Shown: positions 1-50,468, numbered from the stretch's first letter. The stretch is DNA of 64,000 nt from Ostreococcus lucimarinus (GCA_000092065.1 CP000581.1); one strand, 5' to 3'. Program-made: numbers and translations. Notes: generated by a model from the letters alone, not told the origin.

Positions 1-2397
1 GCCATGGGTAAGATGCTCATCGATAGCAACCAGAACCCAGAGCACTTTTTGCTCACAAACGAGTACTACGAGTCCGCCATCGTCGGTCGCTACTGCGAGA
101 AGCGCGATCCGTACTTGGCGTGCGTAGCGTACAAGCGTGGCAACTGCGACGCAGAGTTGGTGGATTGCACGAACAGAAACAGTATGTTCAAGGTTCAGGC
201 GAGATATGTCGTCGAGCGTATGGACGCCGATCTCTGGGCATCTGTGTTGACGGAAGAAAACAAATACTGCCGCCAGCTTATCGACCAAGTCGTGTCTACC
301 GCACTCCCAGAAAGCAAGAACCCTGAGCAAGTTTCTGTGACCGTGAAGGCGTTCATGACGGCAGAAATGCCGCATGAACTCATCGAGTTGTTGGAGAAGA
401 TCGTGCTACAAAACAGCGCGTTCAGCAACAACCCGAACTTGCAAAACTTGCTCATCCTTACCGCCATCAAGGCGGACGCATCTCGCGTCATGGATTACGT
501 CAACCGACTCGACTCTTTCAACGGTCCGGAGGTCGGTGAGATTGCCGCCGGTAACGAGTTGTACGAAGAAGCCTTTGCCATCTTCAAGAAGTTTGATCTG
601 CATGTTGACGCGATGAAGATTCTTCTCGAGTCTCTCGAAGACCTCGATCGTGGCATCGAGTACGCGCGCAAGGTCGACTTACCCGAAGTTTGGGTCCAAA
701 TCGGCAAGGCGCAGCTCAAGGTTGGCACTCCGGAGGCGGTTAAAGCGGCCATCAAGTCGTACATCAAGGCGCAAGATGGGAGTGATTTCGTCGACGTCAT
801 TCACGCCGCGCGCCAAGCCGACATGTACGAAGACATGGTTCCATATTTGCTCATGGTGCGCAAGAACAAGAAAGAAGCTCGCGTCGATACTGAACTTGTG
901 TACGCGTACGCCAAGATCAACGATTTGGCCAAGCTCGAAGACTTTTTGGCTACGCCGAACAGCGCGAATCAGCAGTCCGTCGCCGACAGATGCTTTGGCG
1001 AAGGTTTGTACGAGGCTGCTCGACTTTTGTACACCGCGCTCAGCAACTGGGGCTGCCTTGCGAGCACTTTGCTCAAACTTCGCATGTTCCAAGGTGCAGT
1101 CGACGCCGCGAAGAAGGCTAACTCCCCGCGTACGTGGAAGGAAGTGTGCTTTACGTGTCTCGAAGAAGGCGAAAACAAGCTCGCGCAGCTCGCCGGTCTC
1201 AACATCATTATCCAAGCTGATGAACTCGATTCCGTCAGTGAGTACTACCAAGCGAATGGTAAGTTCACCGAGCTTATCCAGCTTATGGAAGCCGGCGTCG
1301 GCGTTGACCGGGCGCACATGGGTATTTTCACCGAGCTCGGCATCTTGTACGCCAACCACATGGCCGACAAGCTCATGGAACACATTCGTTTGTTCAGCGC
1401 GCGCATCAATATTCCGCGACTCATAACCACGTGCAACCACGTGGCGTTGTGGCCCGAGCTCGCGTATCTTTACAGGTGCTACGACGAGTACGATAACGCT
1501 TGCGAGGTGATGATGAAGCACCCCGACGCTTGGGAGCACGTGGTCTTCAAGGATGTGTGCGTCAAGCTTGCCAACGCGGACTTGTACTACCAGGCGATCG
1601 AGTTTTACCTTCGCGAGCACCCAACAGAGATGACCAATCTTCTCGGTGTACTTCAGTCGAGACTTGATCACTCTCGCGTGGTGTCGCTCATGCGCAAGGA
1701 GGGTAAGTTGGCCATGGTGAAGGAGTACCTTTTAGCTGTGCAGGGTGCAAACTTGACGGCGGTGAACGACGCCGTGAACGAACTCGCGATCGAAGAAGAA
1801 GATCACGCGGCGTTGAAGACTTCGCTCGATATGTACGACAATTGCGATCAACTATCTCTTGCGGTACAATGCGAGAGCCACGAACTGATCGAGTTCCGAA
1901 GAATTTCTTCGTACATCTATCAGCGCAACGCGCGATGGCAGCAAGCCATCGATCTTAGCAAGCGGGATGGGTTACTTAAGGACGCCATGGAAATCGCCGC
2001 GAAGAGTGGAGACGCGACCATCGTGGACGAACTTCTCGACTACTTCATCGATCAAGGCAACAAGGAGTGCTTCTCCGCCGCCTTGTGCACGTGCTACGAC
2101 TTGTTGAAGCCCGACGAAGTCATGCAAAAGGCATGGTTGAAGGGTCTTAGCGACTGGGTCATGCCTTACATGATTCAAGTCATGCGTGATATGAACGGTA
2201 AGTTGGAGATTTTGATGAAGGATAAGGCGGACCGCAACGAAGAAAAGGTGAACGAGGAGAAAGAGCGCGTCGCGGCCGAGATGAATAGCAACCTCTACGC
2301 GCAACTCATGCCTGCGGCGCTTCCGGCTCCGCCGATGCCGGGCATGCCGGGGTACGAGCAACCGCAACCGGGATACGGGCAACCGCAGTATTACTGA
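1..2397 (+). CDS. CHC: Clathrin heavy chain, C-terminal ~800 aa. The 5' part of the gene lies upstream of the window, and the ORF is open to position 1.
   Basis: Translation matches clathrin heavy-chain repeat region and trimerisation domain (…YCEKRDPYLACVAYKRGNCD…, C-terminal Pro/Gly/Gln-rich tail PGMPGYEQPQPGYGQPQYY). No start codon expected at position 4. Established family knowledge. Confidence 0.9.
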   Translation, partial: AMGKMLIDSNQNPEHFLLTNEYYESAIVGRYCEKRDPYLACVAYKRGNCDAELVDCTNRNSMFKVQARYVVERMDADLWASVLTEENKYCRQLIDQVVSTALPESKNPEQVSVTVKAFMTAEMPHELIELLEKIVLQNSAFSNNPNLQNLLILTAIKADASRVMDYVNRLDSFNGPEVGEIAAGNELYEEAFAIFKKFDLHVDAMKILLESLEDLDRGIEYARKVDLPEVWVQIGKAQLKVGTPEAVKAAIKSYIKAQDGSDFVDVIHAARQADMYEDMVPYLLMVRKNKKEARVDTELVYAYAKINDLAKLEDFLATPNSANQQSVADRCFGEGLYEAARLLYTALSNWGCLASTLLKLRMFQGAVDAAKKANSPRTWKEVCFTCLEEGENKLAQLAGLNIIIQADELDSVSEYYQANGKFTELIQLMEAGVGVDRAHMGIFTELGILYANHMADKLMEHIRLFSARINIPRLITTCNHVALWPELAYLYRCYDEYDNACEVMMKHPDAWEHVVFKDVCVKLANADLYYQAIEFYLREHPTEMTNLLGVLQSRLDHSRVVSLMRKEGKLAMVKEYLLAVQGANLTAVNDAVNELAIEEEDHAALKTSLDMYDNCDQLSLAVQCESHELIEFRRISSYIYQRNARWQQAIDLSKRDGLLKDAMEIAAKSGDATIVDELLDYFIDQGNKECFSAALCTCYDLLKPDEVMQKAWLKGLSDWVMPYMIQVMRDMNGKLEILMKDKADRNEEKVNEEKERVAAEMNSNLYAQLMPAALPAPPMPGMPGYEQPQPGYGQPQYY

Positions 2398-2453: not shown

Positions 2454-4262
2454 TTGAATAAAAGCGAAACTCAGACGCAAACGCAAACGTTCAGTGGTAT
2501 GGTAATCTCGGTCGCCGCGCGCGCCGCACAACGCGGCGCATCCCTGATCCGCTCGCCGTGCGCGCTCGAACGCGCCGCGCGCTCGAACAAAATGCCGCGC
2601 ATCGTGCGTGACGCGCCGCGCCTCGCCGCACCGCCCGCGTCGTCGCCACCCGTCGCCGTTCGCCGCCGACAGTTGCCACTCGGTCGACGTCACCGCGCCG
2701 CCGCGCTCTGCGTTTGCCGCGCGACGACGCCGCGGGAGATCGCGCGCGCGATCGAGGACGCTCCGTGGCGCGGTGGACTCGAACCAGCGGCGAACGCGCC
2801 GTGGACGGCGGCGGAAGTGGTGTCGGGACGGATACCGGCCGAGCTCGCGGGGACGCTCTATCGCGCGGGACCGGGACGGATTCGTCTGGGGGCGACCAAG
2901 TACGCGCATTGGTTCGATGGCGATGGGTACGTCACAGCGATCGAGATGGATGCCGATGCGAACACGGCGCGGTGCGCGGGGAAGTACGTGGAGACGGCGA
3001 GATGGACGAAGCAGCGGGCACGCGACGGCGGCGATGGGACAAACGACGACGCGGTCGGGAGCAGCGGCGTCGCGGTCCGAGGAGCGTGGACTCAAGCGAG
3101 CGGAATGATGGCAAATTTAGGACGGTTTCCGACGAACCCGTCGAACACGTCCATCATCGTGCACGCGGGGAAGGTTTTGGCGTGTTGCGAAGGCGGCGCG
3201 CCGGTGGCGATCGATCCGGCGTCGCTCGCGACGAGAGGTGAAGTCGTCTTCGGACCGAGTCTTCCGATGGGTTTCAGCGCGCACAGTAAGCAGGACCCGC
3301 GCGATGGAACGTTGTACACGTGGGGGTTGAAAAAGCCGCCGTTCATAGGTATTTCTGTCGGCAAGGTGAACGCCGCGGGCGAAGTGATGCAAGTCGCCGA
3401 CATGCCGTTTCCGCGAGCGGCGCCAGAATTTGCATTGTTACACGACTGCGCGATGAGCGAAAATTACTTGACGTTTTTCATGTGCCCGTGGGAGTTACCG
3501 AACGACGCCATCGTGGGTGCACTCAGCGGGATGAAGTCTTTCGGACACTCGTTCAAATGGAGCGACGAACGCGAGACGTGGATGGTCGTGCTGAGGAAAT
3601 CAGATTTAAGCGTCGTGCACGCGAAAAACGTGCCTTCGTTTTCGAGTTATCACACGTGCGACGCTTACGAAGAGAACGGAAAACTCAAGGTGCTTTACGG
3701 CAAGCTCAGAGGCGATCGCACCGGGCTCGAAAAGAATTTTGGCGACATGTACGCCGCCGTGTGGTCGTCGCGACATTACAACGATTTGCACGAGATGACG
3801 ATCGATATCGCCACCGGTAACGTCACAGACGCGCTCGCGATGCCGACGAACGCCGATGGCGAACGAGATATGACGAAAATGATCGGCATGGAGTTCCCTG
3901 TGGTTTCTCCGCGAACGATGAGCCGCCGCAAACCAAAGTACGTGTACACGCTCGCGAATTCGTGCGGCGAGCACGGCTACTTTGACTCCATTCAAAAACT
4001 CAATCTCGAGACGCAAAAGGCCGAGACGCGCTTGAGCGCCCTCGGTCACTACCCACACGAGTGCGAATTCATCCCCAAGACGAACGCCGACGACGAGGAC
4101 GCCGGATACCTCGCGTACGTCGAGTACGACGTCTCGCGCGACGCCGCAAACGTCGTCGTCCTCGACGCCCAGCGCTTCACCGAAGTCGACCCCGTGGCCG
4201 TCATCGCCCTCCCCATGCACGTTCCGTACACCTTTCACGGCACCTTCGCGCGACGCGCGTGA
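2454..4262 (+). CDS. Carotenoid cleavage dioxygenase (RPE65/CCD family) with N-terminal transit-peptide-like extension. The real start is probably a downstream Met (2499 or 2592).
   Basis: Motifs typical of carotenoid oxygenases: AHWFDGDGYV, the four conserved His regions (HSKQDP, HDCAMSENY, HTCDAYEE, HVPYTFHGTF). R/A/S-rich N-terminus. Only 56 bp after the clathrin stop, so the annotated first Met is doubtful. Confidence 0.85.
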   Translation: MNKSETQTQTQTFSGMVISVAARAAQRGASLIRSPCALERAARSNKMPRIVRDAPRLAAPPASSPPVAVRRRQLPLGRRHRAAALCVCRATTPREIARAIEDAPWRGGLEPAANAPWTAAEVVSGRIPAELAGTLYRAGPGRIRLGATKYAHWFDGDGYVTAIEMDADANTARCAGKYVETARWTKQRARDGGDGTNDDAVGSSGVAVRGAWTQASGMMANLGRFPTNPSNTSIIVHAGKVLACCEGGAPVAIDPASLATRGEVVFGPSLPMGFSAHSKQDPRDGTLYTWGLKKPPFIGISVGKVNAAGEVMQVADMPFPRAAPEFALLHDCAMSENYLTFFMCPWELPNDAIVGALSGMKSFGHSFKWSDERETWMVVLRKSDLSVVHAKNVPSFSSYHTCDAYEENGKLKVLYGKLRGDRTGLEKNFGDMYAAVWSSRHYNDLHEMTIDIATGNVTDALAMPTNADGERDMTKMIGMEFPVVSPRTMSRRKPKYVYTLANSCGEHGYFDSIQKLNLETQKAETRLSALGHYPHECEFIPKTNADDEDAGYLAYVEYDVSRDAANVVVLDAQRFTEVDPVAVIALPMHVPYTFHGTFARRA

Positions 4263-4464
4263 CGCGCGTCGTCTTCGTGTTGTAACTCTAGCGCCCGGAT
4301 CTTTCAGTCTTCGCGTCAACCGTCAGTCGTCGGTTGTTAGTTGGTCGTTAGTTCCGTCGCGTCGCGCGCCGCCGCGCGCCCGTAACATCGAGGCGCCGAA
4401 AGAATTCGAGCGCGCGAAAACAATCGTCGCGAACGTTCGTGCGTCGAGATCGCGGCTGGATACA

Positions 4465-6003
4465 GTGAAGATACGATTGCAATTTTTGTCCCGCGCGGTC
4501 GCCGCGCCAGAAATAGCCTCGCGGCGCATGCGCGCCGCGGTCGCGCGCGGCGTCGTCGCGCGGGCGGCGCGCGCGCGGCGCGCGACGCGCGAACCCGCGC
4601 GCGACGCGCGACGCGCGACGCGAGGAACCGCGGCGCGCGCGCGACGCGACGAACGCGCGAACGCCTCGGCGGCGGACGCGGTCGCGGTCGACGGGACGGT
4701 CGACGACGACGCGCGCGCGGTCGATAGCGCCGAGACGGCGGCGCGCGCGGTGAAAACGCCGCACAGTGGATACCATCGACAGCGCGGCGTCGCGCGGGCG
4801 TTCTTCGAGGGATGGTACTTTCGGTTCACGCTGCCGAGCGCGAAGGCGTCGGCGAGTCTGATTTATCACGTGTACGACCCGGATTTGCCCGAGTCCGCGC
4901 GGGGAGGGGCGGGCGCGCAGGTGTGCGCGCCGTGTGGGAAATATTTGTACTTTGAACAAGGCGCGGAGGAGGCGCGCGCGGGATTCGAGGGGGCGGCGCA
5001 CGCGTTGGAATTGAAATCGACGCGCGGCGACGATTTCTTCGAGGTGTCGCGCGAGGGCGCGAGACATCGAGGAAGGTTGACGAGCGAGGGAGAGAGCGAG
5101 GAAGGGCCGTGGGGCGGAGGACGCGCGGCGAAGAGCGTGCGATGGGACATCACGGTGACGCCGCTTCGAGGATGGGGGGGAGGACCGGGGGCGAAGATGG
5201 TGTCGCCCGCGGGCTGGATGACGGCGCTGCCGGTGTTCGAGCCGCATTGGCAAGTCACCATGGCGCACGGATTGGCGAGCGGATGGATCGAAACCGACGG
5301 CGAGCGCGTTGAGTTTAGCGATTGCCCGGCGTACAGCGAGAAGAATTGGGGCGGCGCTGGGTTTCCGTTGAAATGGTGGTGGGTGCAGTGCAACTCGTTC
5401 GCGGATTATCCCGATTTGAGCGTAACCGCGACTGGAGGGAACCGAGGCGTCGTCGTGCTCCCGAACGTTCGCGAAGACGTCGGTCTGGTAGGCGTGCACT
5501 TCGGCGATCGATTTTTTCAATTCGTTCCCGCGCAGCAAGTGGAGGTTGACTCGACGTCGGCGTACGGCGCCGAGTCGGCGTTGGAGGCGAGCGCCGTTCG
5601 ATGGGACGTCGAGTGGGGTCGGTGGAGCGTCACCGCCGTCGGTGAACGATACGAGTGCTCGATAGAAGGGACGTGCACGAACGACGACAAATCCACCGTC
5701 ATTCGCGCGCCTTCGGACAGCTTGGACGAGGGTATGGCGCCGTCGTGCCGCGAGACGTTCACGGGCGTCGTCGTCGTATCCCTTTGGCGTCTCAACGACC
5801 GCGGCGAGCGCGTCGAGACCATCATCGACGCCGCTACGAGCGATACCGCATGTCTAGAAATCGGCGGCGGACCTTGGATCGGACCCTGGCGCTCGGCTGC
5901 GGAGATCCGCTCGCCGCTCGGCCCGCTCATGGGTTTGCCCGTCGACGTGCGCGCCGTGGCGAGTTTGCTCTCACCCTTCGGCGACGTCCTTCCCGGGCTG
6001 TGA
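4465..6003 (+). CDS. VTE1: Tocopherol cyclase (VTE1/SXD1 family), plastid-targeted
   Basis: Strong matches to tocopherol cyclase signatures: PHSGYH…FFEGWYFR, PVFEPHWQV, YSEKNWGG.FP.KWWWVQCN, EIGGGPW.GPW, C-terminal …PFGDVLPGL. Arg/Ala-rich N-terminal ~100 aa transit-peptide-like. Confidence 0.85.
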   Translation: MKIRLQFLSRAVAAPEIASRRMRAAVARGVVARAARARRATREPARDARRATRGTAARARRDERANASAADAVAVDGTVDDDARAVDSAETAARAVKTPHSGYHRQRGVARAFFEGWYFRFTLPSAKASASLIYHVYDPDLPESARGGAGAQVCAPCGKYLYFEQGAEEARAGFEGAAHALELKSTRGDDFFEVSREGARHRGRLTSEGESEEGPWGGGRAAKSVRWDITVTPLRGWGGGPGAKMVSPAGWMTALPVFEPHWQVTMAHGLASGWIETDGERVEFSDCPAYSEKNWGGAGFPLKWWWVQCNSFADYPDLSVTATGGNRGVVVLPNVREDVGLVGVHFGDRFFQFVPAQQVEVDSTSAYGAESALEASAVRWDVEWGRWSVTAVGERYECSIEGTCTNDDKSTVIRAPSDSLDEGMAPSCRETFTGVVVVSLWRLNDRGERVETIIDAATSDTACLEIGGGPWIGPWRSAAEIRSPLGPLMGLPVDVRAVASLLSPFGDVLPGL

Positions 6004-6051
6004 CCCTCGCTCGCGTCGCGCGTCATTGTAACCATTCTTTTTGCGCGCGAT

Positions 6052-7806
6052 GTGCGGTCTCACGCGCCCCGCGCGCGCCGCCCCGCTCCCGCGCGTCCAA
6101 CCGTCGCCGCCGCGCGCCGCACACGCCGTCGCGCCATGCCGCGCGCGTTCGCCCGCGTCGTCCTCGCGCGCGCGCTCGCCGCCGCGCGCGCCCCCGTCGC
6201 GCACGCCGCGCGTCGTCTCGCCGTCGCGCGTCCGCCCTGCGCCGCGAAATCCACCGCCGCCGCCGCCGCGTCCGACCGCGGCGACGTTCGCGTCGGCGAC
6301 GAAGTCTCCGTGGAGTGCGTCGATTTCGCCACGTCGGGCGAGGGCGTGTGCAAGCTCGCGAATGGGATGGTTTTGCTCTGCGACGGCGCGACGCCCGGAG
6401 AGGTGGTGCGCGCGCGGGTGACGAAGCTGCGGAAGAAGCTGGCGCACGGCGCGAAGACGGCGACGGAACGCGCGGCGCCGAACGCGGTGACGGCGCCGTG
6501 CCCGCACCACGAACAGTGCGGAGGGTGCGCGTGGCAGCACGTGAATTACGACGCGCAGGTGGGGCATAAGCGGAATCGGGTGGTGGACGTGCTGGCGAGA
6601 ATATATAAAGCGGGCGAGGACGCCGAGGCGAAAGTCGGCGCGTGCGTCGGCGCGGACGAGACGTCGAGGTATAGGAATAAAATGGAGTTCGCGTTCGCGA
6701 GTGGAACGAGAGGAAAGACGGTCGTCGGGTTGCGACCGCGAGGGGCGAACGATTCGGTGGTGGATTTAAGCGGTGGATGTCTGTTGCAGAGCGAGGAGGC
6801 GGATCGCGTGTTGGCGGCGATTCGGGAGACGCTGGAACGCGCGGACGGGCGCTTGGAGGCGTTCGATCGCACGAGCGGCGAAGGCACCCTTAGAAGCGTG
6901 ACGATTCGCACGGCTGGTGGCGAGCGCGGCGGTGAGAAGGCTGTGATGGTCGATTTAGCGACGACGGCTTCGCCGAACGAACTGAAAACGGGACCGCTCG
7001 CGGGACTCATCGACGTCGTCTCGAAGGTACCGGGCGTGGTGTCCGTGGTGCACACTTCCGTGCCGAGCGAAGCCGAACTCCGACGCGCGGGCGGTGGACG
7101 CTCGTCAAAGTTCGTCAAGGGTGGCACGACGACGAAGGCTGGGTCAACTAAGAAAGTCGAGGCGGTGTTCGGCGAGAACAAATTAGTCGAAACGCTCAAC
7201 GGCATCGACTTTGAACTTTCTTCGGCGTCCTTCTTTCAGACCAACACTGAGCAGGCTGCGAGATTGGTGCGACAGGTTCGCGAGGCGTGCGCTTTCAGCG
7301 GCGATAAGTCTGAGATCGTGCTCGACCTGTTTTGCGGTGTCGGTACGATGGGACTCAGCGTCGCGAGCGACTGCTCGCGAGTGATGGGATGGGAAGTCGT
7401 TCCAGAGGCGGTGAAAGACGCGAAACGCAACGCCGAGCTGAACAACATCACGAACGCCAAATTCTATCGCGTTGATTTGGCGAGATTAAATCCGTCCAAA
7501 GGCCCGAAAGGTCTTCTCACGACGCCGAAAGGCAAAGAGCTTCCCATGCCGGACATCGTCATCACGGACCCGGCGAGGCCTGGTATGGACTCCGCACTCA
7601 TCGCGATCCTGCGCACAATCGGTGCTCGGCGTATCGTCTACGTGTCGTGTAATCCCGCGACGCAAGCGCGAGACTTGCTACTTCTCACGGCGCCGTCGGA
7701 GGGCGCGGACGACGTCGCGTACGAGCTCAAAACCGTCACGCCCGTCGATATGTTTCCTCACACGACGCACGTCGAGTCCGTCGCCGTGCTCGAACGCAAA
7801 GCTTAG
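6052..7806 (+). CDS. RNA (uracil-5)-methyltransferase of the RumA/RlmD/TrmA family, with TRAM domain and Fe-S Cys cluster. Organelle-targeted. The start may be the Met at 6136.
   Basis: TRAM-like OB fold (VGDEVSVECVDFATSGEGVC…), four-Cys cluster CPHHEQCGGCAWQH, SAM-MTase motifs (LDLFCGVGT…, ITDPARPG, C-terminal …YVSCNPAT). Established family. Confidence 0.8.
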   Translation: MRSHAPRARRPAPARPTVAAARRTRRRAMPRAFARVVLARALAAARAPVAHAARRLAVARPPCAAKSTAAAAASDRGDVRVGDEVSVECVDFATSGEGVCKLANGMVLLCDGATPGEVVRARVTKLRKKLAHGAKTATERAAPNAVTAPCPHHEQCGGCAWQHVNYDAQVGHKRNRVVDVLARIYKAGEDAEAKVGACVGADETSRYRNKMEFAFASGTRGKTVVGLRPRGANDSVVDLSGGCLLQSEEADRVLAAIRETLERADGRLEAFDRTSGEGTLRSVTIRTAGGERGGEKAVMVDLATTASPNELKTGPLAGLIDVVSKVPGVVSVVHTSVPSEAELRRAGGGRSSKFVKGGTTTKAGSTKKVEAVFGENKLVETLNGIDFELSSASFFQTNTEQAARLVRQVREACAFSGDKSEIVLDLFCGVGTMGLSVASDCSRVMGWEVVPEAVKDAKRNAELNNITNAKFYRVDLARLNPSKGPKGLLTTPKGKELPMPDIVITDPARPGMDSALIAILRTIGARRIVYVSCNPATQARDLLLLTAPSEGADDVAYELKTVTPVDMFPHTTHVESVAVLERKA

Positions 7807-7858
7807 TATCGCTAAACAAATTCGTCTGTTGTTACATTATTCTTAGTCGCACAAGTTC

Positions 7859-8566
7859 TCACCGTCGCACATCCGTCGCCGCCGCCGCCGCCGCCGCGCG
7901 CGCGCCGAAATCGGCGCTCTTCCGAAACGCGACGCTCTCCCCAGTCTTCACGTTCCGATACACGACGCCTTTCCCCGCCATCACGCTCGTCTCCATTCGA
8001 CCGAGCATCAACAAGTACCCCCACTCGCTCGCGATTCTCTGCGTGAAGACGCGATGCCAGCCCACCTCGCCCGCCGCCCAGTCTCGCAGCGGTCGCTCGC
8101 AATCCGCCAGCGTCCCTTCGCGCGCGCCCACGCGCCAGAGCAAGTGCGCGAACGCCGGCGCGCACTCCGCGCACAGCCGTTCGAGCTGTTCGGCGCCGCC
8201 CAGGGCGTTCGCCGCGCGTTCGATCGCCGCGCGCGTCGCCGACGTGTCCAGCGTCAGCAGCCCCGGGCGCTCGACGGCGAGCTCGAACGCGTGGCGCGCG
8301 CACGCGCGCGGCAGCGCCGAGCTCAGGGCGTACACGCGCTCGGTGAGCACGCTGAGCGGAACGTCGTCGCGCACGGCGCGCCCTTCCACCGTGTGATCGA
8401 GCTGCTGAAGCGCGCGGTCGTCGAGGCCTAAAATCGCTCGAAGCGACGCGACGCGCGCGGCGGAGGACGGCGCGTCGGCGGAGGACGCGCGGACGCGAGC
8501 GCTCGCGCGTCGCGCGCGAACGGAGACGACGCGCGCGACGCGGACGCGCGGGGCGAGGCGGGACAT
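7859..8566 (-). CDS. Hypothetical protein with Arg-rich presequence-like N-terminus
   Basis: 235-aa ORF with coding-like composition (W, Y, F, codon third-position GC) between flanking genes. No recognisable domain by eye. Confidence 0.4.
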   Translation of the reverse strand: MSRLAPRVRVARVVSVRARRASARVRASSADAPSSAARVASLRAILGLDDRALQQLDHTVEGRAVRDDVPLSVLTERVYALSSALPRACARHAFELAVERPGLLTLDTSATRAAIERAANALGGAEQLERLCAECAPAFAHLLWRVGAREGTLADCERPLRDWAAGEVGWHRVFTQRIASEWGYLLMLGRMETSVMAGKGVVYRNVKTGESVAFRKSADFGARAAAAAAATDVRR

Positions 8567-8674: not shown

Positions 8675-9442
8675 TTACCTACGACTGTTGCTTCGCGTCG
8701 CGCGCCCAGCGGACGCGCGCGGACTCGCGAGCGCGCCGACGCCGTCGTCGCCGTTCGCGAGTTCGACGAACGCCTTGCGCGCGTCCCGCACAAACTTCCC
8801 GAAATCATTCGAACGGTTACACTCCGCGAGCAACGCGTCGATCGACGCTAACATCGGCGCGCACTCCATCACCTCGTACGCCGTCCCGCGCAATCGCACC
8901 GCGAACGTAAACTCTCGCTCCGGCGCGCGCGCGTCGACGTATTTAAACACCAACCGCAACCGCTCCGCCTCGCCGTATTCAAATCTCAATCCCAATCGTT
9001 CCGCGTACATCGCGCTCGCCCCCCTCAGCGCGTCCAATTTTGCCATCGCGCTCGTTCCCGTCGCTTTATTTTTCGCGTGTTCGATCGCCGTCCGTTCCTC
9101 CCCGACGCGTTCGCGCAGCGCCGCCAACTGCTCGGGCAGTCCTTCCGCCAGTTCTCTCGCCGCGTTCGTCTCTTCGAGCGCCTGTTCCGCCTCCATCTCG
9201 TACCGCTCCGCTTCGCGCGCGTTATCAGCCGCGCGTTCGCTCAGCTCTCGCTCGCGATTGATCAGCGCGTCGTACTCGCGCTCGAGCTTTAAGATTTGTC
9301 GGTCGTGCGCATCCTTCAAACGTCTTTCGCGCGCGACGTTTTCGCCGACCCAGCCGTCGATGATGTCGCGGAACTCGGCGAGCTCGCGCTCGAGATCGGC
9401 GACGTCGACGTCGCGGTGGCGCGCGGCGCGGTTGGGGGGCAT
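8675..9442 (-). CDS. Coiled-coil plus RWD-like C-terminal domain protein. Resembles kinetochore protein Spc25.
   Basis: N-terminal heptad-rich region followed by LRFEY…LVFKYVD…EFTFAVRL…YEVMECAP, reminiscent of the Spc25 C-terminal RWD fold. Assigned from remembered motifs only. Confidence 0.45.
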   Translation of the reverse strand: MPPNRAARHRDVDVADLERELAEFRDIIDGWVGENVARERRLKDAHDRQILKLEREYDALINRERELSERAADNAREAERYEMEAEQALEETNAARELAEGLPEQLAALRERVGEERTAIEHAKNKATGTSAMAKLDALRGASAMYAERLGLRFEYGEAERLRLVFKYVDARAPEREFTFAVRLRGTAYEVMECAPMLASIDALLAECNRSNDFGKFVRDARKAFVELANGDDGVGALASPRASAGRATRSNSRR

Positions 9443-9654: not shown

Positions 9655-11751
9655 TCAGTAGCCGAGCTTTTTGTTGAGCGCGCTCGCGCCGTCGCCGGAT
9701 TGGTTCGCCGGGGCGGTCCAGTCGGAATCGTCGGCGGCGGCTTCGGCGTCGAATCTCGCGCCCGAGGAGGCATCAAGAAGGCGCTGGATGTCTGACATGA
9801 CGGTATCCTCCGCGGATGGTGCGGCCGCGTGTGATGGCGCGGCTTTGGTTGGGGGTTTGCGAATTTCCAAGCCGGCGCGCACTTGATGCGGCATCAAGAA
9901 ACCGTCATCGTCGTCGCGCACCACGGGTTCAGTCTCAGCGGCGGTATGTGCTTCAATCTCGCGCTCGGTCGGTGTGACTCGTTGTTCGACGTCTTCGACG
10001 ATCACTGGGCCTTCGTCATCGGCGTTATCGGCGTTATCGGCGTCATCTTCGACGACGGCGGCTTTCGCTTTCGCCGGCGCCGACGTTGAGGCGGGATCGA
10101 CGCCTCCCGTGAACTTTCGCTTCTCTTGCAAGTTACCTTGCTCTTCCCATTCCGCTTGCCGTCGCATCTCTGCGTCACGTTTCTTGCGCGCTTCGAGTTC
10201 TTCCGCTCGCTTCGCTTCGGCGATTTCGGCGCGTCGTTTTGCCTCCTCGGCGCGTTTCGCCTCCGCCTCCTCGGCGTGTTTCCGCATGGCGTCTCCTTTG
10301 GCCGATCCAGGACGGAATTCCTCGGTTGGGTCGGCGTACTTCAACAGTCGAGACACTCGCTCGAGTTCAGACACTTTTTCGGAGAGCGTCACGCGTAATC
10401 TCTCGACTTGAGACGTGAATTTCGACGCGCCAATTTCGTCCATGTACGCATCCAACGCGTCGCCGTCTGCCGAAAGTCCCGCCGTGCGCTGACGTTCGGC
10501 GAGCGCGGCTTCTTCGGTGACTTTGATGAGTTCTTCCGTTTCCGTGATCGACGTCTCAATCGCTGTGCGCTTGTCCCACAACGTAGCCGCCGTCTCTAGC
10601 GTTTTCGGTGCCGCCGCGCCTTGCGTGGATTCTTTCTTCGACTCTTTTCGACGCTTACGACTCGCGCTCGTCCGCGAACGGTCGTAAAAGTCGTCTTCAT
10701 CTCCACTCTGACCGTCTTCGTCGTCCGAGTTCGCTCGCGTGCCCCGACGTCGCTTGGACACCGCAGCTTGCAAACCCAAACTCACGCGCAACGATTCGTT
10801 GAGCGTCTCATCGGCGTCCTCGATCTCTTCTTGCAACGTCTCGATCGCGCGCTCGACCGCAGATATTCGCGTCGATTGCCCGGACGATAGCCCACCGTCT
10901 TGCTGCGACTCCTTGGCTCGAATTCGATCGACTTCTAGGCGCATGTTTGAGATCTTTTCCTCCTTGCGCCGAATGTTTTGCTTTTGCTTTTCCTGTTTAT
11001 CGCTAAATTTCCCATCGTGCGTGCGCCAATCCAGCTCTTCGATCGCGCGTTGACGCTCGTTGATTTCGTCATCGGCATCCATCATCCCCCAAGACGACCC
11101 AGCCTTTGCCGCAGCCTCTTGTTCGCGCGCCGCCGCGCGTTCCGCCTTCAACGCCGCCAGTTCGCGCTGCATCTCAGCCTCCGCCGCGGCTTCCAACGCC
11201 GCTAACGCCTTCATCTCTGCCGCACTCAGCCCTTCCTCTGGCATCAAGCTCTCATCGCCGTCTAAAATATACAATCTACTCGACTCGCCGAGCTTGATCT
11301 GATCGCCGACTCGAATCGGCGCGTGCACGCCCGGCTTGACGCGTCGCTTATTCACAAACGTCCCGTGCGCGCTCTCGCAATCGTACACGTACGCCTCTGT
11401 CCCGTTCGCCTTGAACTGAATCACGCAATGCAAACGTGACGTCGACGGGTGTTCGACGACGACGTCGCACGCCGGATGCCTTCCGAACGTCACGTGTCCT
11501 CGCGGCGCGTCTTCGCCTTCGCCTCGGTCCAGTCGCGTCCTCGACGCCAACGCGCCGCCCTTGACGCAATCGAGATAAAACTCGCGCGCGGGCGCCCCGC
11601 CCCACGCGGGCGCGTCGTACGTCTTCCCGAGCGGCGGCGCGGACGCGCGATCGCGCGCGTCCGCGCTCGGCGCGGCGGGCTCGACGTCCGGGGCCGCCCC
11701 ACCGGCGGCGTCCTTCGTCGGCTTCGCGCGCGGCGCCGGCGGTCGCATCAT
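9655..11751 (-). CDS. FHA-domain coiled-coil protein, kanadaptin (SLC4A1AP)-like. The longest ORF extends to 11898, but the Met-Met at 11751 is the more plausible start.
   Basis: FHA core: …WGGAPAREFYLDCVKGG…VTFGRHPACDVVVEHPSTSRLHCVIQF…YVYDCESAHGTFVNKRRV…SSRLYIL. This closely parallels the kanadaptin FHA region. A long K/E-rich coiled coil and acidic tail follow. Contains a small GVIGVIGVI-encoding repeat on the opposite strand (~10040–10070). Confidence 0.7.
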   Translation of the reverse strand: MMRPPAPRAKPTKDAAGGAAPDVEPAAPSADARDRASAPPLGKTYDAPAWGGAPAREFYLDCVKGGALASRTRLDRGEGEDAPRGHVTFGRHPACDVVVEHPSTSRLHCVIQFKANGTEAYVYDCESAHGTFVNKRRVKPGVHAPIRVGDQIKLGESSRLYILDGDESLMPEEGLSAAEMKALAALEAAAEAEMQRELAALKAERAAAREQEAAAKAGSSWGMMDADDEINERQRAIEELDWRTHDGKFSDKQEKQKQNIRRKEEKISNMRLEVDRIRAKESQQDGGLSSGQSTRISAVERAIETLQEEIEDADETLNESLRVSLGLQAAVSKRRRGTRANSDDEDGQSGDEDDFYDRSRTSASRKRRKESKKESTQGAAAPKTLETAATLWDKRTAIETSITETEELIKVTEEAALAERQRTAGLSADGDALDAYMDEIGASKFTSQVERLRVTLSEKVSELERVSRLLKYADPTEEFRPGSAKGDAMRKHAEEAEAKRAEEAKRRAEIAEAKRAEELEARKKRDAEMRRQAEWEEQGNLQEKRKFTGGVDPASTSAPAKAKAAVVEDDADNADNADDEGPVIVEDVEQRVTPTEREIEAHTAAETEPVVRDDDDGFLMPHQVRAGLEIRKPPTKAAPSHAAAPSAEDTVMSDIQRLLDASSGARFDAEAAADDSDWTAPANQSGDGASALNKKLGY

Positions 11752-11917
11752 CGCGCGCGACCGCGCGAGGACGACGCTGAACGCTCGCGCGCGCTTCGCG
11801 CCGAACCGCGCGGCGAGCGACGGCGCGAACGATCGCGCGTCGGCGTGTCCCGCTCGCGCGCGGGCGAAAACATTCCAAATTCGCATTCGGGCCGTCACAC
11901 GCGCGCGCGCGCCGGCG

Positions 11918-15673: not shown

Positions 15674-16786
15674 CTACCCGCGGGTCGGCCTGCCTACGCG
15701 CCCGGACGATCGATCCGGCGCGCGGCGCAAAAACTCGTCCATCGCGAGCACGCGCATGTTCGTGTCGTCGACGCGCATCAGAACGTACGGTTTGGGCGAG
15801 CCCGGGACGACGCGCGCGACGCCGCTGGCGTCTCGCGTCTCGACGGCGTCGCCGCGCTCGGAACGAATCTCTAACAAGCGCACGCTCGGCCTGTGAACGT
15901 ACAGCGCGCCCGTGTCGGCGTCGAACGCGAACGTGGCGTCGCGACACCCCTTGATGATCGCTTTCAGTCTCAGCTTGCCGTGACTCAGGATGCGAAAGAG
16001 CAATACCCTGCGCGTCTCGTCGCCGACGGCGAAGCAGTCGCGCTCGGCGCAAATCTCAAATCTCGTGTACCGTCGCGGCGCGTCCACGAACGCGCAGTTC
16101 CACGTCGGCTTCTCTCGTTTCAGCGCGCTCACCTCATCCATATCCACGCCCTCGTACTCCCCCACCGCGTCCTCGCTCACGTCGGCGTCTCGGTCCACGA
16201 ATGTCTTCGCCACGCTCAGCGCCGTCGACGAAAACTTTCGTAACATCGCGAGTCCACCGCCGAGCGCCGTCTCGCGCTTCCCCGCGTCGTCGCTCGTCGC
16301 CGACGTCGACGCGATCGCCGCCCCTCCCACCGCGATCAGCGTCGTCGTCCCATCGTTCGCTCGCGCCGCGCCCGCGCACGCCGTCATCGGCGCCAGCCGC
16401 GGGAGCGTCCACCGCCGCGTCGCGCGTCCCGTCCTCGCGTCCCATCGCACGCACCGCTCGACGCTCGACGCGTACTCCCCGCACGCGCGAACGACGCGCG
16501 CGACGTCCACGCGCGTCTCCACGCCTCGAGTCGTCGCGACGTAGCCCGCGTCGTCGCCGACGACGACGCCCGTCGCCGTCGCGGCGCAGCACGCGATGGG
16601 GACGTCGCGCGCGAGCGCCGCCTCGCGCGCGTCCGACCGGCGCAGCGCGCGCGGGTCGCGACGCGAGCGGTAATACAGCGCGCCGTCGCGATACGCGACG
16701 CACTCGACGTCGACGTCGGCGCCGTCGAACGCGGCGGACATCGCGGTCTGGCGGTTCGCGTCGGCGTCGCGCGCGACCCGTAACAA
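15674..16786 (-). CDS. Hypothetical protein. Beta-rich and possibly a propeller-like fold.
   Basis: 370-aa ORF with normal amino-acid diversity (W, Y, F, C, N). No motif recognised. Confidence 0.45.
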   Translation of the reverse strand: MLRVARDADANRQTAMSAAFDGADVDVECVAYRDGALYYRSRRDPRALRRSDAREAALARDVPIACCAATATGVVVGDDAGYVATTRGVETRVDVARVVRACGEYASSVERCVRWDARTGRATRRWTLPRLAPMTACAGAARANDGTTTLIAVGGAAIASTSATSDDAGKRETALGGGLAMLRKFSSTALSVAKTFVDRDADVSEDAVGEYEGVDMDEVSALKREKPTWNCAFVDAPRRYTRFEICAERDCFAVGDETRRVLLFRILSHGKLRLKAIIKGCRDATFAFDADTGALYVHRPSVRLLEIRSERGDAVETRDASGVARVVPGSPKPYVLMRVDDTNMRVLAMDEFLRRAPDRSSGRVGRPTRG

Positions 16787-16840: not shown

Positions 16841-17043
16841 GTCTTATCTTCGGATATGACACCTGATAAACTGGAAAAAAATACAGAGAAGATTAGCATG
16901 GCCCCTGCGCAAGGATGTGAGTGTTCGCTCGGACGCTCGCGCCGCGCACGCTCGGACTCGAGCGACGACGCCTATGCGCGGCGACTGACGGTCGCGTCGC
17001 GCGCGAATCGCAGGACACACAATAACTCAAGAAAAGTTACACG
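16841..17043 (+). ncRNA. U6: U6 spliceosomal snRNA gene, apparently split by a 97-nt spliceosomal-type intron. Exon 1 is 16841–16916 and exon 2 is 17014–~17043.
   Basis: Exon 1 carries the 5' stem-loop with CTTCGG loop, …CTGGAAAAAA, and the invariant ATACAGAGAAGATTAGCATGGCCCCTGCGCAAGGAT (16881–16916). Exon 2 GACACACAATAACTCAAGAAAAGTTACACG matches the U6 3' region (compare human GACACGCAAATTCGTGAAGCGTTCCATA). A T8 run follows. Confidence 0.8.
16917..17013 (+). other. mRNA-type (spliceosomal) intron inside the U6 snRNA gene
   Basis: GTGAGT donor at 16917. ACTGAC branch motif at 16984–16989, 25 nt before the acceptor. CAG acceptor at 17011–17013. Joining the exons restores the canonical U6 sequence …GCAAGGAT|GACAC…. 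Confidence 0.7.
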
Positions 17044-17394: not shown

Positions 17395-18378
17395 ATGGGG
17401 GCGGCGGCGGCGGCGCGCGGACGCGTCGCGGCGCTGGCGCGACACGCGGGCGCGACGTTCGAGCTCCCGACGCGCGCGATCGAGATCGCGGCGACGGCGG
17501 GCGAGGGCGGGGGTAACGTGACGCTGTTCGCGAACGCGCGCGTGGGTCGAAACGCGCGCGTCGTGGAGACGCCGTTCGCGTCGTGGGCGACGAGGAGCGC
17601 GACGTTCGCCGAACGCGCGGGACCTCGAGACTTTTTAGCGGCGTTTGAACCGGGCACCGTGCGCGAGACCGTGGCGCTGATGATGCACACGCTGAGCGAA
17701 AAGAAAGCGGACGAGTCAGCGTCGTCGTACGCCGCGAGTTGTCTGCCGGAATCGTTTCGGTTCGTCGACGCGTGCCTGAACGAAGCCGACGTTCAGGCGT
17801 TGGCTGGTACGGAGACGGAGTCGCGCGCGCGTTCGCGCGGTGAATTCGTGAGAAAGCTATCGGCGATGTCGAAGATCCCTGTCGCCGACATCGCGTGGGC
17901 GCTCGGCGCGGTGTCGTCGCGCGCGATGAAATCGGCGGCGGTGCCAGAATTCGCGCTCGTGCCCGGATGCGATTTATTAGACCATCACCCGCAACCGAAC
18001 TGCGAGGTGCGCCGAGACGGCGGGTCGACGCCGGACGTGTACGTTGCGACGACGAGAGACATCGCACCGGGCGAAGCGCTCACCATAAGCTATGGCAATC
18101 TCGGAAACGATCGCGCGTTGCGAATGTACGGCTTTAGCGACGCGGCGTTCTTTAAGAACGACACGCGACGAAGCGGTGTCCATCCGTCGAACGAGTCGGC
18201 GTTCGCGAAAACGCTCGACGCGCAATCTCTAGATGAATGGCTCGCGGACCGATCGTCGTGGTGTCGCGACGTTCCGGGACAAAAGGGCGAGGACGACGAG
18301 TGGTTTCGACACGTCTCGATTTTGCGCCGCGGGCAAACGGAAATCATAGACGCGTACGTGCGAGCGCTAGATTGCTAG
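17395..18378 (+). CDS. SET-domain protein lysine methyltransferase (Rubisco-LSMT/SETD-like)
   Basis: SET C-terminal signature …LVPGCDLLDHHPQPNCEV…GEALTISYGNLGNDRALRMYGF…. Confidence 0.65.
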   Translation: MGAAAAARGRVAALARHAGATFELPTRAIEIAATAGEGGGNVTLFANARVGRNARVVETPFASWATRSATFAERAGPRDFLAAFEPGTVRETVALMMHTLSEKKADESASSYAASCLPESFRFVDACLNEADVQALAGTETESRARSRGEFVRKLSAMSKIPVADIAWALGAVSSRAMKSAAVPEFALVPGCDLLDHHPQPNCEVRRDGGSTPDVYVATTRDIAPGEALTISYGNLGNDRALRMYGFSDAAFFKNDTRRSGVHPSNESAFAKTLDAQSLDEWLADRSSWCRDVPGQKGEDDEWFRHVSILRRGQTEIIDAYVRALDC

Positions 18379-38028: not shown

Positions 38029-38475
38029 AATTTAATGTAGTTTGCGTTCGCGCGACGACTGTAAAATAACATGTTTCTCTTCGTGCGCTCGAGTCGACGA
38101 CACACTGCGTGACGCGCGGAGTTTCATGCGCGGCGAGCGAGGGAAGACGCAGCAAGACCCGAGGACGGGGACGATCGAAGACGAGACCGCGCTCGACACG
38201 GGTGCGCGACGCGACGACGCGACGACGTTTCTCTGAATCGCTGCGTGAGAATCTCAATCAGCGTTTCCAACCGTGACTGACGCGCGCGCCTCGCGTGACG
38301 CACAGAGATAGAGCGAGTCGTCGGTGCGGAACGTTTTGACGCGGGACAGGGCGCGGTGCGGACGGATATCGGGTTCTTCGACGACTTTGACGACGATTTC
38401 GACGAGAGGGCGATTCGAGGGGACGTCGCCGTCGCCGCCGAAGAGAGACGAGACGGCGCGTCGTCCGAGTAAATC

Positions 38476-48695: not shown

Positions 48696-50468
<1,773 letters not shown>

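What the first reader, a model, noticed from the sequence alone, without database searches (positions are those of the whole stretch)
2454..7806. Tandem, same-strand trio of organelle-targeted genes: carotenoid cleavage dioxygenase, tocopherol cyclase and a RumA-type RNA methyltransferase
CCD (carotenoid cleavage) and VTE1 (tocopherol/plastochromanol ring closure) both act on plastid prenyl-lipid antioxidants. They lie 200 bp apart in the same orientation. A third organelle-targeted gene follows 50–130 bp later. In a eukaryote this is not an operon, but such tight co-oriented pairing of functionally related plastid lipid genes could reflect co-regulation from shared chromatin, or a conserved syntenic block. 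The annotated first Met of CCD lies only 56 bp after the clathrin stop, so the true start and promoter are unclear.
Basis: partly seen in the sequence, partly recalled or inferred. Interest (0 to 1): 0.5.

Follow-up and report, generated by a model that had tools for sequence, protein, structure and literature searches.

The report
Three neighbouring organelle genes, ordinary synteny
Three real genes for organelle enzymes sit head-to-tail in the tiny, gene-packed genome of the green alga Ostreococcus, but their closeness is what this genome does everywhere and their shared neighbourhood is inherited gene order, not a functional cluster.

Summary
Three intact, intronless, same-strand genes encode an RPE65/CCD-family dioxygenase (CDS 2499-4262), a tocopherol cyclase (4528-6003) and a RumA/RlmD-type RNA m5U methyltransferase (6136-7806). 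The window is Ostreococcus lucimarinus or a near-identical strain. The first CCD ATG lies 101 nt after the clathrin stop, not 56.

The tightness and co-orientation are not special. The window holds about 44 genes in 64 kb with a median gap of 125 nt, and six runs of three or more same-strand genes.

The order is conserved in all 9 Ostreococcus-like and low-GC (Bathycoccus-like) lineages sampled. It is conserved as part of a 7-gene collinear block that also holds clathrin, an unknown gene, Spc25 and an FHA protein. In all 9 Micromonas-like lineages VTE1 sits in a different neighbourhood, and the CCD ortholog lies elsewhere in the three loci examined. Auxenochlorella and 80 cyanobacterial loci show no linkage.

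The CCD has its full His tetrad and is closest to retinal-forming apocarotenoid oxygenase. Published O. tauri data found no operons and no position-linked expression.

Verdict: ordinary inherited microsynteny in a compact genome. Low interest.

The parts
4..2397 (+). C-terminal 797 residues of clathrin heavy chain (stop TGA 2395-2397). It is the upstream member of the conserved collinear block and is functionally unrelated to the trio.
   Evidence: PF00637 Clathrin E=6e-145. It is adjacent to the CCD in all Ostreococcus-like and low-GC loci with enough flank.
2499..4262 (+). Carotenoid/apocarotenoid cleavage oxygenase (RPE65/CCD family), 587 aa from the first ATG. A second in-frame ATG lies at 2592 (aaaATGc). 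The N-terminal extension of about 70 residues is Ala/Arg-rich.
   Evidence: PF03055 E=1.3e-96. His262/315/385/580 align to ACO His183/238/304/484, and three second-shell Glu also align. The exact 587-aa protein is on record in NCBI and JGI as 'carotenoid cleavage dioxygenase-like enzyme'. Codon 2454 is TTG.
4281..4285 (+). TGTAA pentamer 19 nt after the CCD stop, a candidate polyadenylation signal.
   Evidence: TGTAA lies within 60 nt after the stop in 11 of 44 window genes against 2.2 expected from shuffles. Its density is 4.17/kb there against 0.13/kb in CDS. It is not conserved at orthologous junctions. The function is inferred from Chlamydomonas UGUAA (own knowledge).
4528..6003 (+). Tocopherol cyclase (VTE1), 491 aa from the first ATG. 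The N-terminal extension of about 68 residues is Ala/Arg-rich.
   Evidence: PF14249 E=5.3e-87, full-length profile match. Homologs are named tocopherol cyclase across green algae, plants and cyanobacteria. Codon 4465 is GTG and the first ATG is at 4528. Its 90% cluster holds XP_001415456.1 from O. lucimarinus.
6027..6031 (+). TGTAA pentamer 24 nt after the VTE1 stop, a candidate polyadenylation signal.
   Evidence: with the same caveats as for 4281-4285.
6136..7806 (+). RumA/RlmD-type RNA (uracil-C5)-methyltransferase with a TRAM domain, 556 aa from the first ATG. The N-terminal extension is about 49 residues. An out-of-frame ATG lies at 6050.
   Evidence: TIGR00479 rumA 274 bits (cutoff 183.55). 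PF05958 E=1.9e-19 and TRAM E=3.4e-4. The best solved relative is S. pneumoniae SP_1029 (E=1.2e-52), with E. coli RumA at 1.8e-33. The motifs CPHHEQCGGC, VSCNPAT and HVE can be read. Its 90% cluster holds XP_001415457.1.
7859..8566 (-). Unknown 235-aa gene, convergent with the methyltransferase (stops 52 nt apart). It is part of the collinear block.
   Evidence: No Pfam hit. Orthologs sit at the same relative position in Ostreococcus-like and most low-GC loci.
8675..9442 (-). Kinetochore protein Spc25, part of the collinear block.
   Evidence: PF08234 E=7e-21. Collinear.
9655..11886 (-). FHA-domain protein, the last gene of the block shared with the low-GC clade.
   Evidence: Orthologs in L004/L005 and L012 carry PF00498 FHA. 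Collinear. The gene after it differs in low-GC loci.

Best explanation
These are three independent nuclear genes of Ostreococcus lucimarinus, each encoding an organelle-directed enzyme of bacterial type. The first is an ACO-like carotenoid/apocarotenoid cleavage oxygenase, the second is tocopherol cyclase, and the third is a RumA/RlmD-type rRNA m5U methyltransferase. They are close together and co-oriented because this genome packs a gene about every 1.5-1.7 kb with gaps of about 100-250 nt everywhere. Their order has been inherited as part of a 7-gene collinear segment (clathrin, CCD, VTE1, methyltransferase, an unknown gene, Spc25, FHA) from the common ancestor of Ostreococcus and the low-GC Bathycoccus-like clade. 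Each gene is most likely transcribed on its own from the short upstream spacer. The adjacency carries no demonstrated functional meaning.

Shown: gene identities, active-site residues, spacing statistics and the phylogenetic distribution of the arrangement. Inferred: organelle targeting, separate transcripts and the absence of selection on the adjacency.
For: Identity of genes and organism.

Spacing and orientation are typical of the window: median gap 125 nt, tandem median 201 nt, six runs of at least 3 genes, P(run of at least 4)=0.97. Literature gives intergenic regions below 200 bp (PMC2850359) and 7,805 genes in 13.2 Mb (PMC3491373).

Collinearity is not specific to the trio. Genes g1-g10/11 are collinear among Ostreococcus-like lineages, and g1-g7 are collinear with the low-GC clade, including four unrelated genes. 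Published synteny is globally better conserved between Ostreococcus and Bathycoccus than with Micromonas (PMC3491373).

The distribution fits a single rearrangement. All 9 lineages of one clade have the arrangement and none of the 9 Micromonas-like lineages do. L007 (VTE1) and L015 (CCD) are tied to M. pusilla through neighbour proteins and share no genes. A third arrangement is seen in Auxenochlorella. None of 80 cyanobacterial VTE1 loci has a CCD or RumA gene within the flanks.

No operons and no position-expression link were found in O. tauri. CCD and VTE1 each have a TGTAA 19-24 nt after their stop, and the motif is enriched after stops window-wide.

A chance estimate gives N(N-1)/G expected adjacent pairs. 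For 60-100 plastid isoprenoid/prenyl-lipid genes among 7,805 genes this is 0.45-1.27 per genome (N is my assumption).
Against: The four-gene co-oriented run survives between clades whose VTE1 proteins are only 43-45% identical, while gene order breaks immediately upstream of clathrin and after FHA, and an insertion occurred just after the methyltransferase. With only about 8 junctions observed I cannot exclude somewhat stronger retention of this run than background.

No expression data for these three genes were available. The O. tauri supplement lists one carotene dioxygenase in a diel cluster without a gene ID and does not list VTE1.

TGTAA is not conserved at the orthologous junctions.

In plants VTE1 is a core plastoglobule protein (PMC4915526), and CCD4 is one as well (own knowledge), so a cell-biological link between the two enzyme families exists.
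Confidence: 0.85

Rival explanations
1. The CCD-VTE1 pair, or the whole trio, is a selectively maintained co-regulated neighbourhood. Shared chromatin, a shared short regulatory spacer or transcriptional read-through would couple the expression of plastid prenyl-lipid genes under light or oxidative stress.
For: The same order, orientation and short gaps (46-265 nt) persist in 9 lineages down to 43% VTE1 identity. Both enzymes act on plastid isoprenoid-derived lipids. VTE1 is a plastoglobule protein in plants.
Against: Conservation equally covers clathrin, Spc25, FHA and an unknown gene. All 9 Micromonas-like lineages do without the adjacency. Outgroups and cyanobacteria lack it. The O. tauri transcriptome found no position-linked expression, even for the nitrogen-assimilation cluster. 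The CCD is ACO-like, so it may be a retinal-forming enzyme rather than an antioxidant-lipid enzyme. The third gene is an rRNA methyltransferase with no link to lipids.
Confidence: 0.07
2. The three genes form a polycistronic, operon-like transcription unit in a eukaryote.
For: The genes are on the same strand with gaps of 101-265 nt. One Logan assembly contig spans all four genes, but it is not known whether that run is DNA or RNA.
Against: The literature reports no operons in Ostreococcus and genes 'transcribed as autonomous units'. TGTAA candidate poly(A) signals follow the CCD and VTE1 stops. Each ORF has its own ATG and its own presequence. The spacing equals that of other tandem pairs in the window.
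Confidence: 0.02
3. The adjacency is a relic of a cyanobacterial (endosymbiont) operon transferred en bloc to the nucleus.
For: All three proteins are of bacterial type. VTE1 and ACO-like CCDs both occur in cyanobacteria.
Against: None of 80 cyanobacterial VTE1 loci (1.32 Mb, 49 with at least 5 kb on both sides) has a CCD or RumA homolog nearby. The arrangement is absent from Micromonas-like lineages and from Auxenochlorella. A eukaryotic clathrin gene is part of the same block.
Confidence: 0.01

Closest known systems
Conserved microsynteny among Mamiellales genomes (Ostreococcus-Bathycoccus collinearity; Moreau et al. 2012, PMC3491373)
   Same: The gene order is kept between Ostreococcus clades and a low-GC Bathycoccus-like clade and lost in Micromonas. 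This matches the published global pattern.
   Different: Nothing differs materially. This is one local instance, 7 genes long, with lineage-specific insertions after the methyltransferase.
Synechocystis apocarotenoid-15,15'-oxygenase ACO/Diox1 (PDB 2BIW)
   Same: It is the best solved relative of the CCD (E=7e-35 over residues 86-585). The four iron-binding His and three second-shell Glu are conserved. JGI names orthologs 'all-trans-8'-apo-beta-carotenal 15,15'-oxygenase'.
   Different: The similarity is distant (124 bits). The protein has an extra presequence of about 70 residues and internal insertions. No NCBIfam equivalog cutoff is reached. Substrate and cleavage position are untested.
Plant/cyanobacterial tocopherol cyclase VTE1 (PF14249)
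   Same: The profile match is full-length, and many invariant residues are shared with cyanobacterial and algal VTE1.
   Different: It has an Ala/Arg-rich presequence of about 68 residues. No solved structure is available for comparison.
Bacterial 23S rRNA m5U methyltransferases RumA/RlmD (E. coli, PDB 1UWV) and SP_1029 (S. pneumoniae, PDB 5XJ1)
   Same: It has the TRAM domain plus Rossmann methyltransferase architecture, passes the TIGR00479 cutoff, and has the SCNPAT nucleophile motif and a C-x5-C-x2-C Fe-S motif as in E. coli RumA.
   Different: It is nuclear-encoded with a presequence of about 49 residues and a low-complexity insertion of about 30 residues (around residues 306-337). The target RNA and organelle are unknown.
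Eukaryotic metabolic gene clusters and the Ostreococcus nitrogen-assimilation cluster
   Same: It shows physical proximity of genes that can be given a common functional label.
   Different: Only two of the three genes share even a loose theme, and they are not steps of one pathway. Conservation does not exceed that of the flanking unrelated genes. Even the accepted nitrogen cluster in O. tauri is not co-regulated.

Membership tests
Carotenoid cleavage oxygenase / RPE65 family (PF03055) | Full-length match to the family profile above the curated cutoff | tested here: met
   324.9 bits against a cutoff of 27, profile positions 13-468 of 469
Carotenoid cleavage oxygenase / RPE65 family (PF03055) | Four iron-ligating histidines | tested here: met
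   His262, 315, 385 and 580 (numbered from ATG 2499) align with ACO His183, 238, 304 and 484 (I counted the positions from the printed alignment, and the ligand numbering of ACO is from my own knowledge of Kloer et al. 2005)
Carotenoid cleavage oxygenase / RPE65 family (PF03055) | Three second-shell glutamates | tested here: met
   The motifs ccEgG, mEFPvv and hECeF align to ACO wEgG, cEFPvv and aGEPiF
Carotenoid cleavage oxygenase / RPE65 family (PF03055) | Oxidative cleavage of a carotenoid or apocarotenoid double bond | not testable with these tools
   Needs an enzyme assay
ACO/Diox1-type retinal-forming apocarotenoid oxygenase (subfamily) | Orthology to ACO, shown by an equivalog-level score or phylogenetic placement | tested here: inconclusive
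   ACO is the best PDB hit (124.7 bits against 58.5 for NCED VP14). However, the best NCBIfam equivalog scores 119 against a cutoff of 675. A 2012 survey labels one O. tauri CCD as 'APCO' (CAL50095), and I infer rather than show that it is the ortholog of this gene. No tree was built.
Tocopherol cyclase (PF14249) | Full-length match above the curated cutoff | tested here: met
   292.5 bits against a cutoff of 26.6, profile positions 1-335 of 335. There are 248 homologs at E<=1e-20, many named tocopherol cyclase.
Tocopherol cyclase (PF14249) | Chromanol ring closure activity on DMPBQ or plastoquinol | not testable with these tools
   Needs an assay or complementation. No solved structure is available to check a catalytic site.
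RumA/RlmD 23S rRNA (uracil-C5)-methyltransferase (TIGR00479) | Score above the equivalog cutoff | tested here: met
   274 bits against a cutoff of 183.55
RumA/RlmD 23S rRNA (uracil-C5)-methyltransferase (TIGR00479) | N-terminal TRAM domain | tested here: inconclusive
   PF01938 scores 20.8 bits against a cutoff of 21 (E=3.4e-4) at residues 81-133 of the ORF. The region aligns to the N-terminal domain of SP_1029.
RumA/RlmD 23S rRNA (uracil-C5)-methyltransferase (TIGR00479) | Catalytic cysteine motif and Fe-S cysteine cluster | tested here: met
   VSCNPAT aligns with ISCNVAT of SP_1029. CPHHEQCGGC (C-x5-C-x2-C) can be read. Comparison with E. coli RumA Cys81/87/90 is from my own knowledge.
RumA/RlmD 23S rRNA (uracil-C5)-methyltransferase (TIGR00479) | Methylation of U1939 (or U747) of organellar large-subunit rRNA | not testable with these tools
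   Needs RNA modification mapping in a mutant
Operon / polycistronic unit | One transcript covering several ORFs | not testable with these tools
   No transcript data were available. The literature reports none in Ostreococcus. TGTAA after the CCD and VTE1 stops argues against it.
Functional (metabolic) gene cluster | Adjacency conserved beyond background synteny, or recurring independently | tested here: not met
   The flanking unrelated genes are equally conserved. The adjacency is absent in 9 Micromonas-like lineages, in Auxenochlorella and in 80 cyanobacteria.
Functional (metabolic) gene cluster | Members catalyse steps of one pathway and are co-expressed | not tested
   CCD and VTE1 are not consecutive steps of a known pathway (established biochemistry), and the methyltransferase is unrelated. 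Gene-level expression data were not available.
Conserved microsyntenic block (Bathycoccaceae) | Same gene order and orientation in related genomes | tested here: met
   All 9 Ostreococcus-like and low-GC lineages have it. The taxon label 'Bathycoccus-like' for the low-GC clade is inferred from GC 0.44-0.53 and the published GC of 48%, and is not confirmed by a named sequence.

The most novel reading that the evidence does not exclude
The co-oriented run clathrin-CCD-VTE1-methyltransferase has been kept intact since the Ostreococcus/Bathycoccus ancestor, with VTE1 now only 43% identical, because ultra-short spacers force neighbouring genes to share regulatory DNA. Splitting CCD from VTE1 would then be deleterious. 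This would amount to a constraint-driven, or even adaptive, co-regulated pair of plastid isoprenoid-lipid genes in a eukaryote.
Probability: 0.06. Interest if true: 0.4.

Novelty: already known. Interest (0 to 1): 0.12.

Why it matters
It matters little as it stands. The genes are already annotated members of well-known families in a sequenced model picoalga, and the local gene order is an instance of published Ostreococcus-Bathycoccus collinearity.

There are three small practical gains. First, corrected start codons and spacers are now available for the three genes. Second, the NCBI VTE1 model (296 aa, 'partial') can be replaced by an intact 491-aa ORF. Third, the CCD is ACO-like with a complete active site, which makes it a candidate source of retinal for the alga's rhodopsin.

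If the adjacency were shown to be co-regulated, it would be a modest example of regulatory coupling imposed by extreme genome compaction.

Tried and rejected
1. Loose linkage of CCD and VTE1 in Micromonas via a shared Methyltransf_23 neighbour. tblastn between the CCD-side loci (L015-L017) and the VTE1-side loci (L006-L014) found no shared genes, so I rejected it for lack of evidence. Distances above about 10 kb remain untested.

2. Endosymbiont-operon origin. None of 80 cyanobacterial loci shows it.

3. Naming the low-GC clade. Two cluster look-ups on its clathrin, CCD, LHC, FUN14 and methyltransferase proteins returned no organism names, so 'Bathycoccus-like' stays an inference.

4. Gene-level co-expression from the O. 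tauri microarray supplements. Only an unidentified KOG1285 dioxygenase is listed and VTE1 is not, so this is inconclusive.

5. Settling the CCD start codon by N-terminal conservation. The presequences are not alignable between lineages, so ATG 2499 and ATG 2592 cannot be told apart.

6. Conservation of TGTAA at the orthologous junctions. It is not conserved, so I use it only as suggestive evidence.

7. Hidden genes or RNAs. Seven antisense or alternative-frame ORFs gave no Pfam hit. There is no Rfam hit or tRNA inside 2454-7806.

8. Literature on this specific neighbourhood. I found nothing.

I did not run the third large protein search, a structure prediction or a fold search, because the family assignments were already unambiguous.


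Full report
**What is in the sequence**

The interval 2454-7806 holds three long + strand ORFs that follow the 3' end of a clathrin heavy-chain gene (4-2397; PF00637, E=6e-145).
- The first ORF matches the RPE65/carotenoid oxygenase family over its whole length (PF03055, E=1.3e-96).
- The second matches tocopherol cyclase over the whole profile (PF14249, E=5.3e-87).
- The third passes the curated cutoff of the rumA equivalog model (TIGR00479, 274 bits against 183.55). It also carries a marginal TRAM domain.
- All profile matches are continuous, so I see no evidence of introns.

**Coordinates and start codons**

- In a eukaryote the first usable codons are ATG 2499 (a second at 2592 in an aaaATGc context), ATG 4528 and ATG 6136.
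- These are the models held in public gene calls, at 587, 491 and 556 aa.
- The spacers from stop to first ATG are 101, 265 and 132 nt.
- The claim that the first Met of the CCD lies 56 bp after the clathrin stop is therefore wrong.
- Presequences are not alignable between lineages, so conservation cannot decide between ATG 2499 and ATG 2592.

**Organism**

- The exact CCD protein is on record in NCBI and JGI.
- The 90% clusters of VTE1 and of the methyltransferase contain the consecutive accessions XP_001415456.1 and XP_001415457.1. Both come from Ostreococcus lucimarinus CCE9901, on a 1.15 Mb chromosome.
- The window is this species or a near-identical strain.
- The NCBI VTE1 model is 'partial' at 296 aa, whereas the window has an uninterrupted 491-aa ORF.

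**Is the arrangement unusual for this genome?**

No.
- A simple ATG-ORF gene map of the window gives about 44 genes in 64 kb.
- The median gap is 125 nt (IQR 77-275), and the median gap between tandem genes is 201 nt.
- The orientation string contains six runs of three or more co-oriented genes, two of them of length four.
- A run of at least 4 occurs in 97% of random orientations of 44 genes.
- This agrees with the literature: intergenic regions below 200 bp (PMC2850359) and 7,805 genes in 13.2 Mb (PMC3491373).

**Synteny**

I used VTE1 homologs, neighbourhood look-ups and a metagenome scan to collect 94 eukaryotic VTE1 loci. They fall into 20 lineages at 90% VTE1 identity.
- Five lineages are Ostreococcus-like (GC 0.56-0.66, VTE1 71-100% identical to the window).
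- Four form a low-GC clade (GC 0.44-0.53, VTE1 43-45% identical).
- Every locus in these nine lineages with enough flank shows clathrin, CCD, VTE1 and the methyltransferase on the + strand, followed on the - strand by the unknown gene (not detected at this threshold in one of the four low-GC lineages, L129/L130), Spc25 and FHA.
- I call the low-GC clade Bathycoccus-like from its GC content and the published 48% GC of B. prasinos. No named sequence confirmed this label.

Nine further lineages (GC 0.57-0.73) all show a different arrangement.
- There, VTE1 is followed by cyclophilin, XPG, FKBP and Med14, with no CCD, methyltransferase or clathrin nearby.
- The CCD ortholog in this group lies between an unknown gene and a segment holding (photolyase) another unknown gene, EMC7 and a Methyltransf_23 gene.
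- One VTE1 locus (L007) and one CCD locus (L015) are tied to Micromonas pusilla through neighbour proteins that cluster at 90% or more with M. pusilla entries.
- The two sets of loci share no genes, and none of the Micromonas-context genes occurs in the 64 kb window.
- Auxenochlorella has yet another neighbourhood.

**Is the trio conserved more than its surroundings?**

No.
- Among Ostreococcus-like lineages collinearity runs through genes g1-g10/11, as far as the loci reach.
- Against the low-GC clade it covers g1-g7. One insertion lies right after the methyltransferase (FUN14 plus an LHC gene). There are breaks upstream of clathrin and after FHA.
- The block therefore includes four genes unrelated to plastid lipids.
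- The distribution needs only one rearrangement on the tree.
- It matches the published statement that genome organisation is better conserved between Ostreococcus and Bathycoccus than with Micromonas.

**An ancestral operon?**

No. A scan of bacterial genomes returned 80 cyanobacterial VTE1 loci (1.32 Mb in total, 49 with at least 5 kb on both sides). None has a CCD or RumA-type gene in the flanks.

**The proteins**

CCD:
- His262, 315, 385 and 580 align with the iron ligands His183, 238, 304 and 484 of Synechocystis ACO, and the three second-shell Glu are also present.
- ACO is the best solved relative (E about 1e-35), while NCED VP14 is far weaker (4e-15).
- JGI names the orthologs 8'-apo-beta-carotenal 15,15'-oxygenase.
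- A 2012 survey lists an 'APCO'-type CCD among at least three O. tauri CCD genes.
- O. tauri has a retinal-binding histidine-kinase rhodopsin (a reference in PMC12558739). A role in retinal supply is thus at least as plausible as one in antioxidant lipid turnover. This is inference only.

Methyltransferase:
- It has the C-x5-C-x2-C motif, the SCNPAT nucleophile motif and the C-terminal HVE.
- It is closest to S. pneumoniae SP_1029 (E=1e-52) and then to E. coli RumA (2e-33).

VTE1:
- It has no solved relative detectable by sequence.

Presequences:
- All three proteins have extensions of about 49-70 residues relative to bacterial homologs.
- The extensions are 23-41% Ala and 16-24% Arg, with no acidic residue in the first 20 positions.
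- This is consistent with organelle import, but it does not tell chloroplast from mitochondrion.

**Transcription**

- The O. tauri diel transcriptome paper states that operons have not been identified.
- It also reports that the nitrogen-assimilation cluster is not co-regulated, and that no link between gene position and expression was found.
- In this window TGTAA is strongly enriched just after stop codons. It occurs within 60 nt in 11 of 44 genes against 2.2 expected, at 4.17/kb against 0.13/kb in CDS.
- It occurs 19 nt after the CCD stop and 24 nt after the VTE1 stop. TGTAA is the Chlamydomonas polyadenylation signal (my own knowledge).
- This suggests separate 3' ends, but the motif is not conserved at the orthologous junctions, so I treat it as suggestive only.

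**Other strand and RNAs**

- Seven long antisense or alternative-frame ORFs in the interval have no Pfam match. They are what GC-rich coding DNA produces.
- No Rfam family or tRNA lies in the interval.

**Chance**

If N genes of a genome with G genes share a loose label, about N(N-1)/G adjacent pairs are expected. For N=60-100 and G=7,805 this gives 0.45-1.27 pairs per genome (N is my assumption). One such pair per genome is unremarkable.

**Verdict**

The 'conserved syntenic block' reading is true, but only as ordinary inherited collinearity within one family of picoalgae. The co-regulation reading has no support. I rate the finding as already known and of low interest (0.12). I keep a small probability (about 0.06) that the retention of the run reflects regulatory coupling imposed by extreme compaction.

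Noticed in passing
window 16841-16917 (+): A U6 spliceosomal snRNA gene (RF00026, 60.2 bits, E=1e-12) sits in the 653-nt divergent gap between ORF genes 15674-16741(-) and 17395-18378(+). It is the only Rfam hit in the window.
   Followed up: no
window-wide; examples 4281-4285 and 6027-6031: TGTAA is enriched within 60 nt downstream of stop codons. It occurs in 11 of 44 genes against 2.2 expected from shuffles, at 4.17/kb against 0.13/kb in CDS and 0.39/kb upstream of genes. It is a candidate polyadenylation signal used by about a quarter of the genes here. It is not conserved at orthologous junctions in other lineages.
   Followed up: partly
window 4528-6003 (+): The NCBI protein model for this gene in O. 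lucimarinus (XP_001415456.1) is 'partial' at 296 aa. The window has an intact 491-aa ORF with a full-length tocopherol cyclase match, so the reference annotation looks truncated.
   Followed up: partly
window 6050-6052 (+): An out-of-frame ATG lies between the VTE1 stop (6003) and the methyltransferase ATG (6136). It opens a frame running to 6421. It would be an overlapping upstream ORF if the methyltransferase transcript starts before it.
   Followed up: no
L004 11531-13219; L011 11451-13065: There are lineage-specific insertions at the same junction, between the methyltransferase and the unknown gene g5. One Ostreococcus-like lineage has a 562-aa gene without a Pfam match. The low-GC clade has a FUN14 gene plus a chlorophyll a/b-binding protein gene.
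   Followed up: no
L006-L010, L013-L014, L122-L123, L147, L156, L160-L168, L175-L177: The alternative VTE1 neighbourhood (VTE1, cyclophilin, XPG nuclease, FKBP, Med14) is itself conserved across nine Micromonas-like lineages whose VTE1 proteins are only 51-86% identical.
   Followed up: partly
window 7807-7858: The convergent methyltransferase and g5 genes have stop codons only 52 nt apart. Convergent gaps in the window have a median of 74 nt (range -4 to 187), so the 3' UTRs of convergent neighbours must be extremely short or overlap.
   Followed up: no
window 22948-24601; 38124-39450; 41656-41659; 50465-50468: Several ORF-level gene pairs overlap by 2-89 nt in my crude gene map, for example 22948-24042(-) with 23954-24601(+). 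These may be true overlaps, mis-chosen start codons or unrecognised introns.
   Followed up: no
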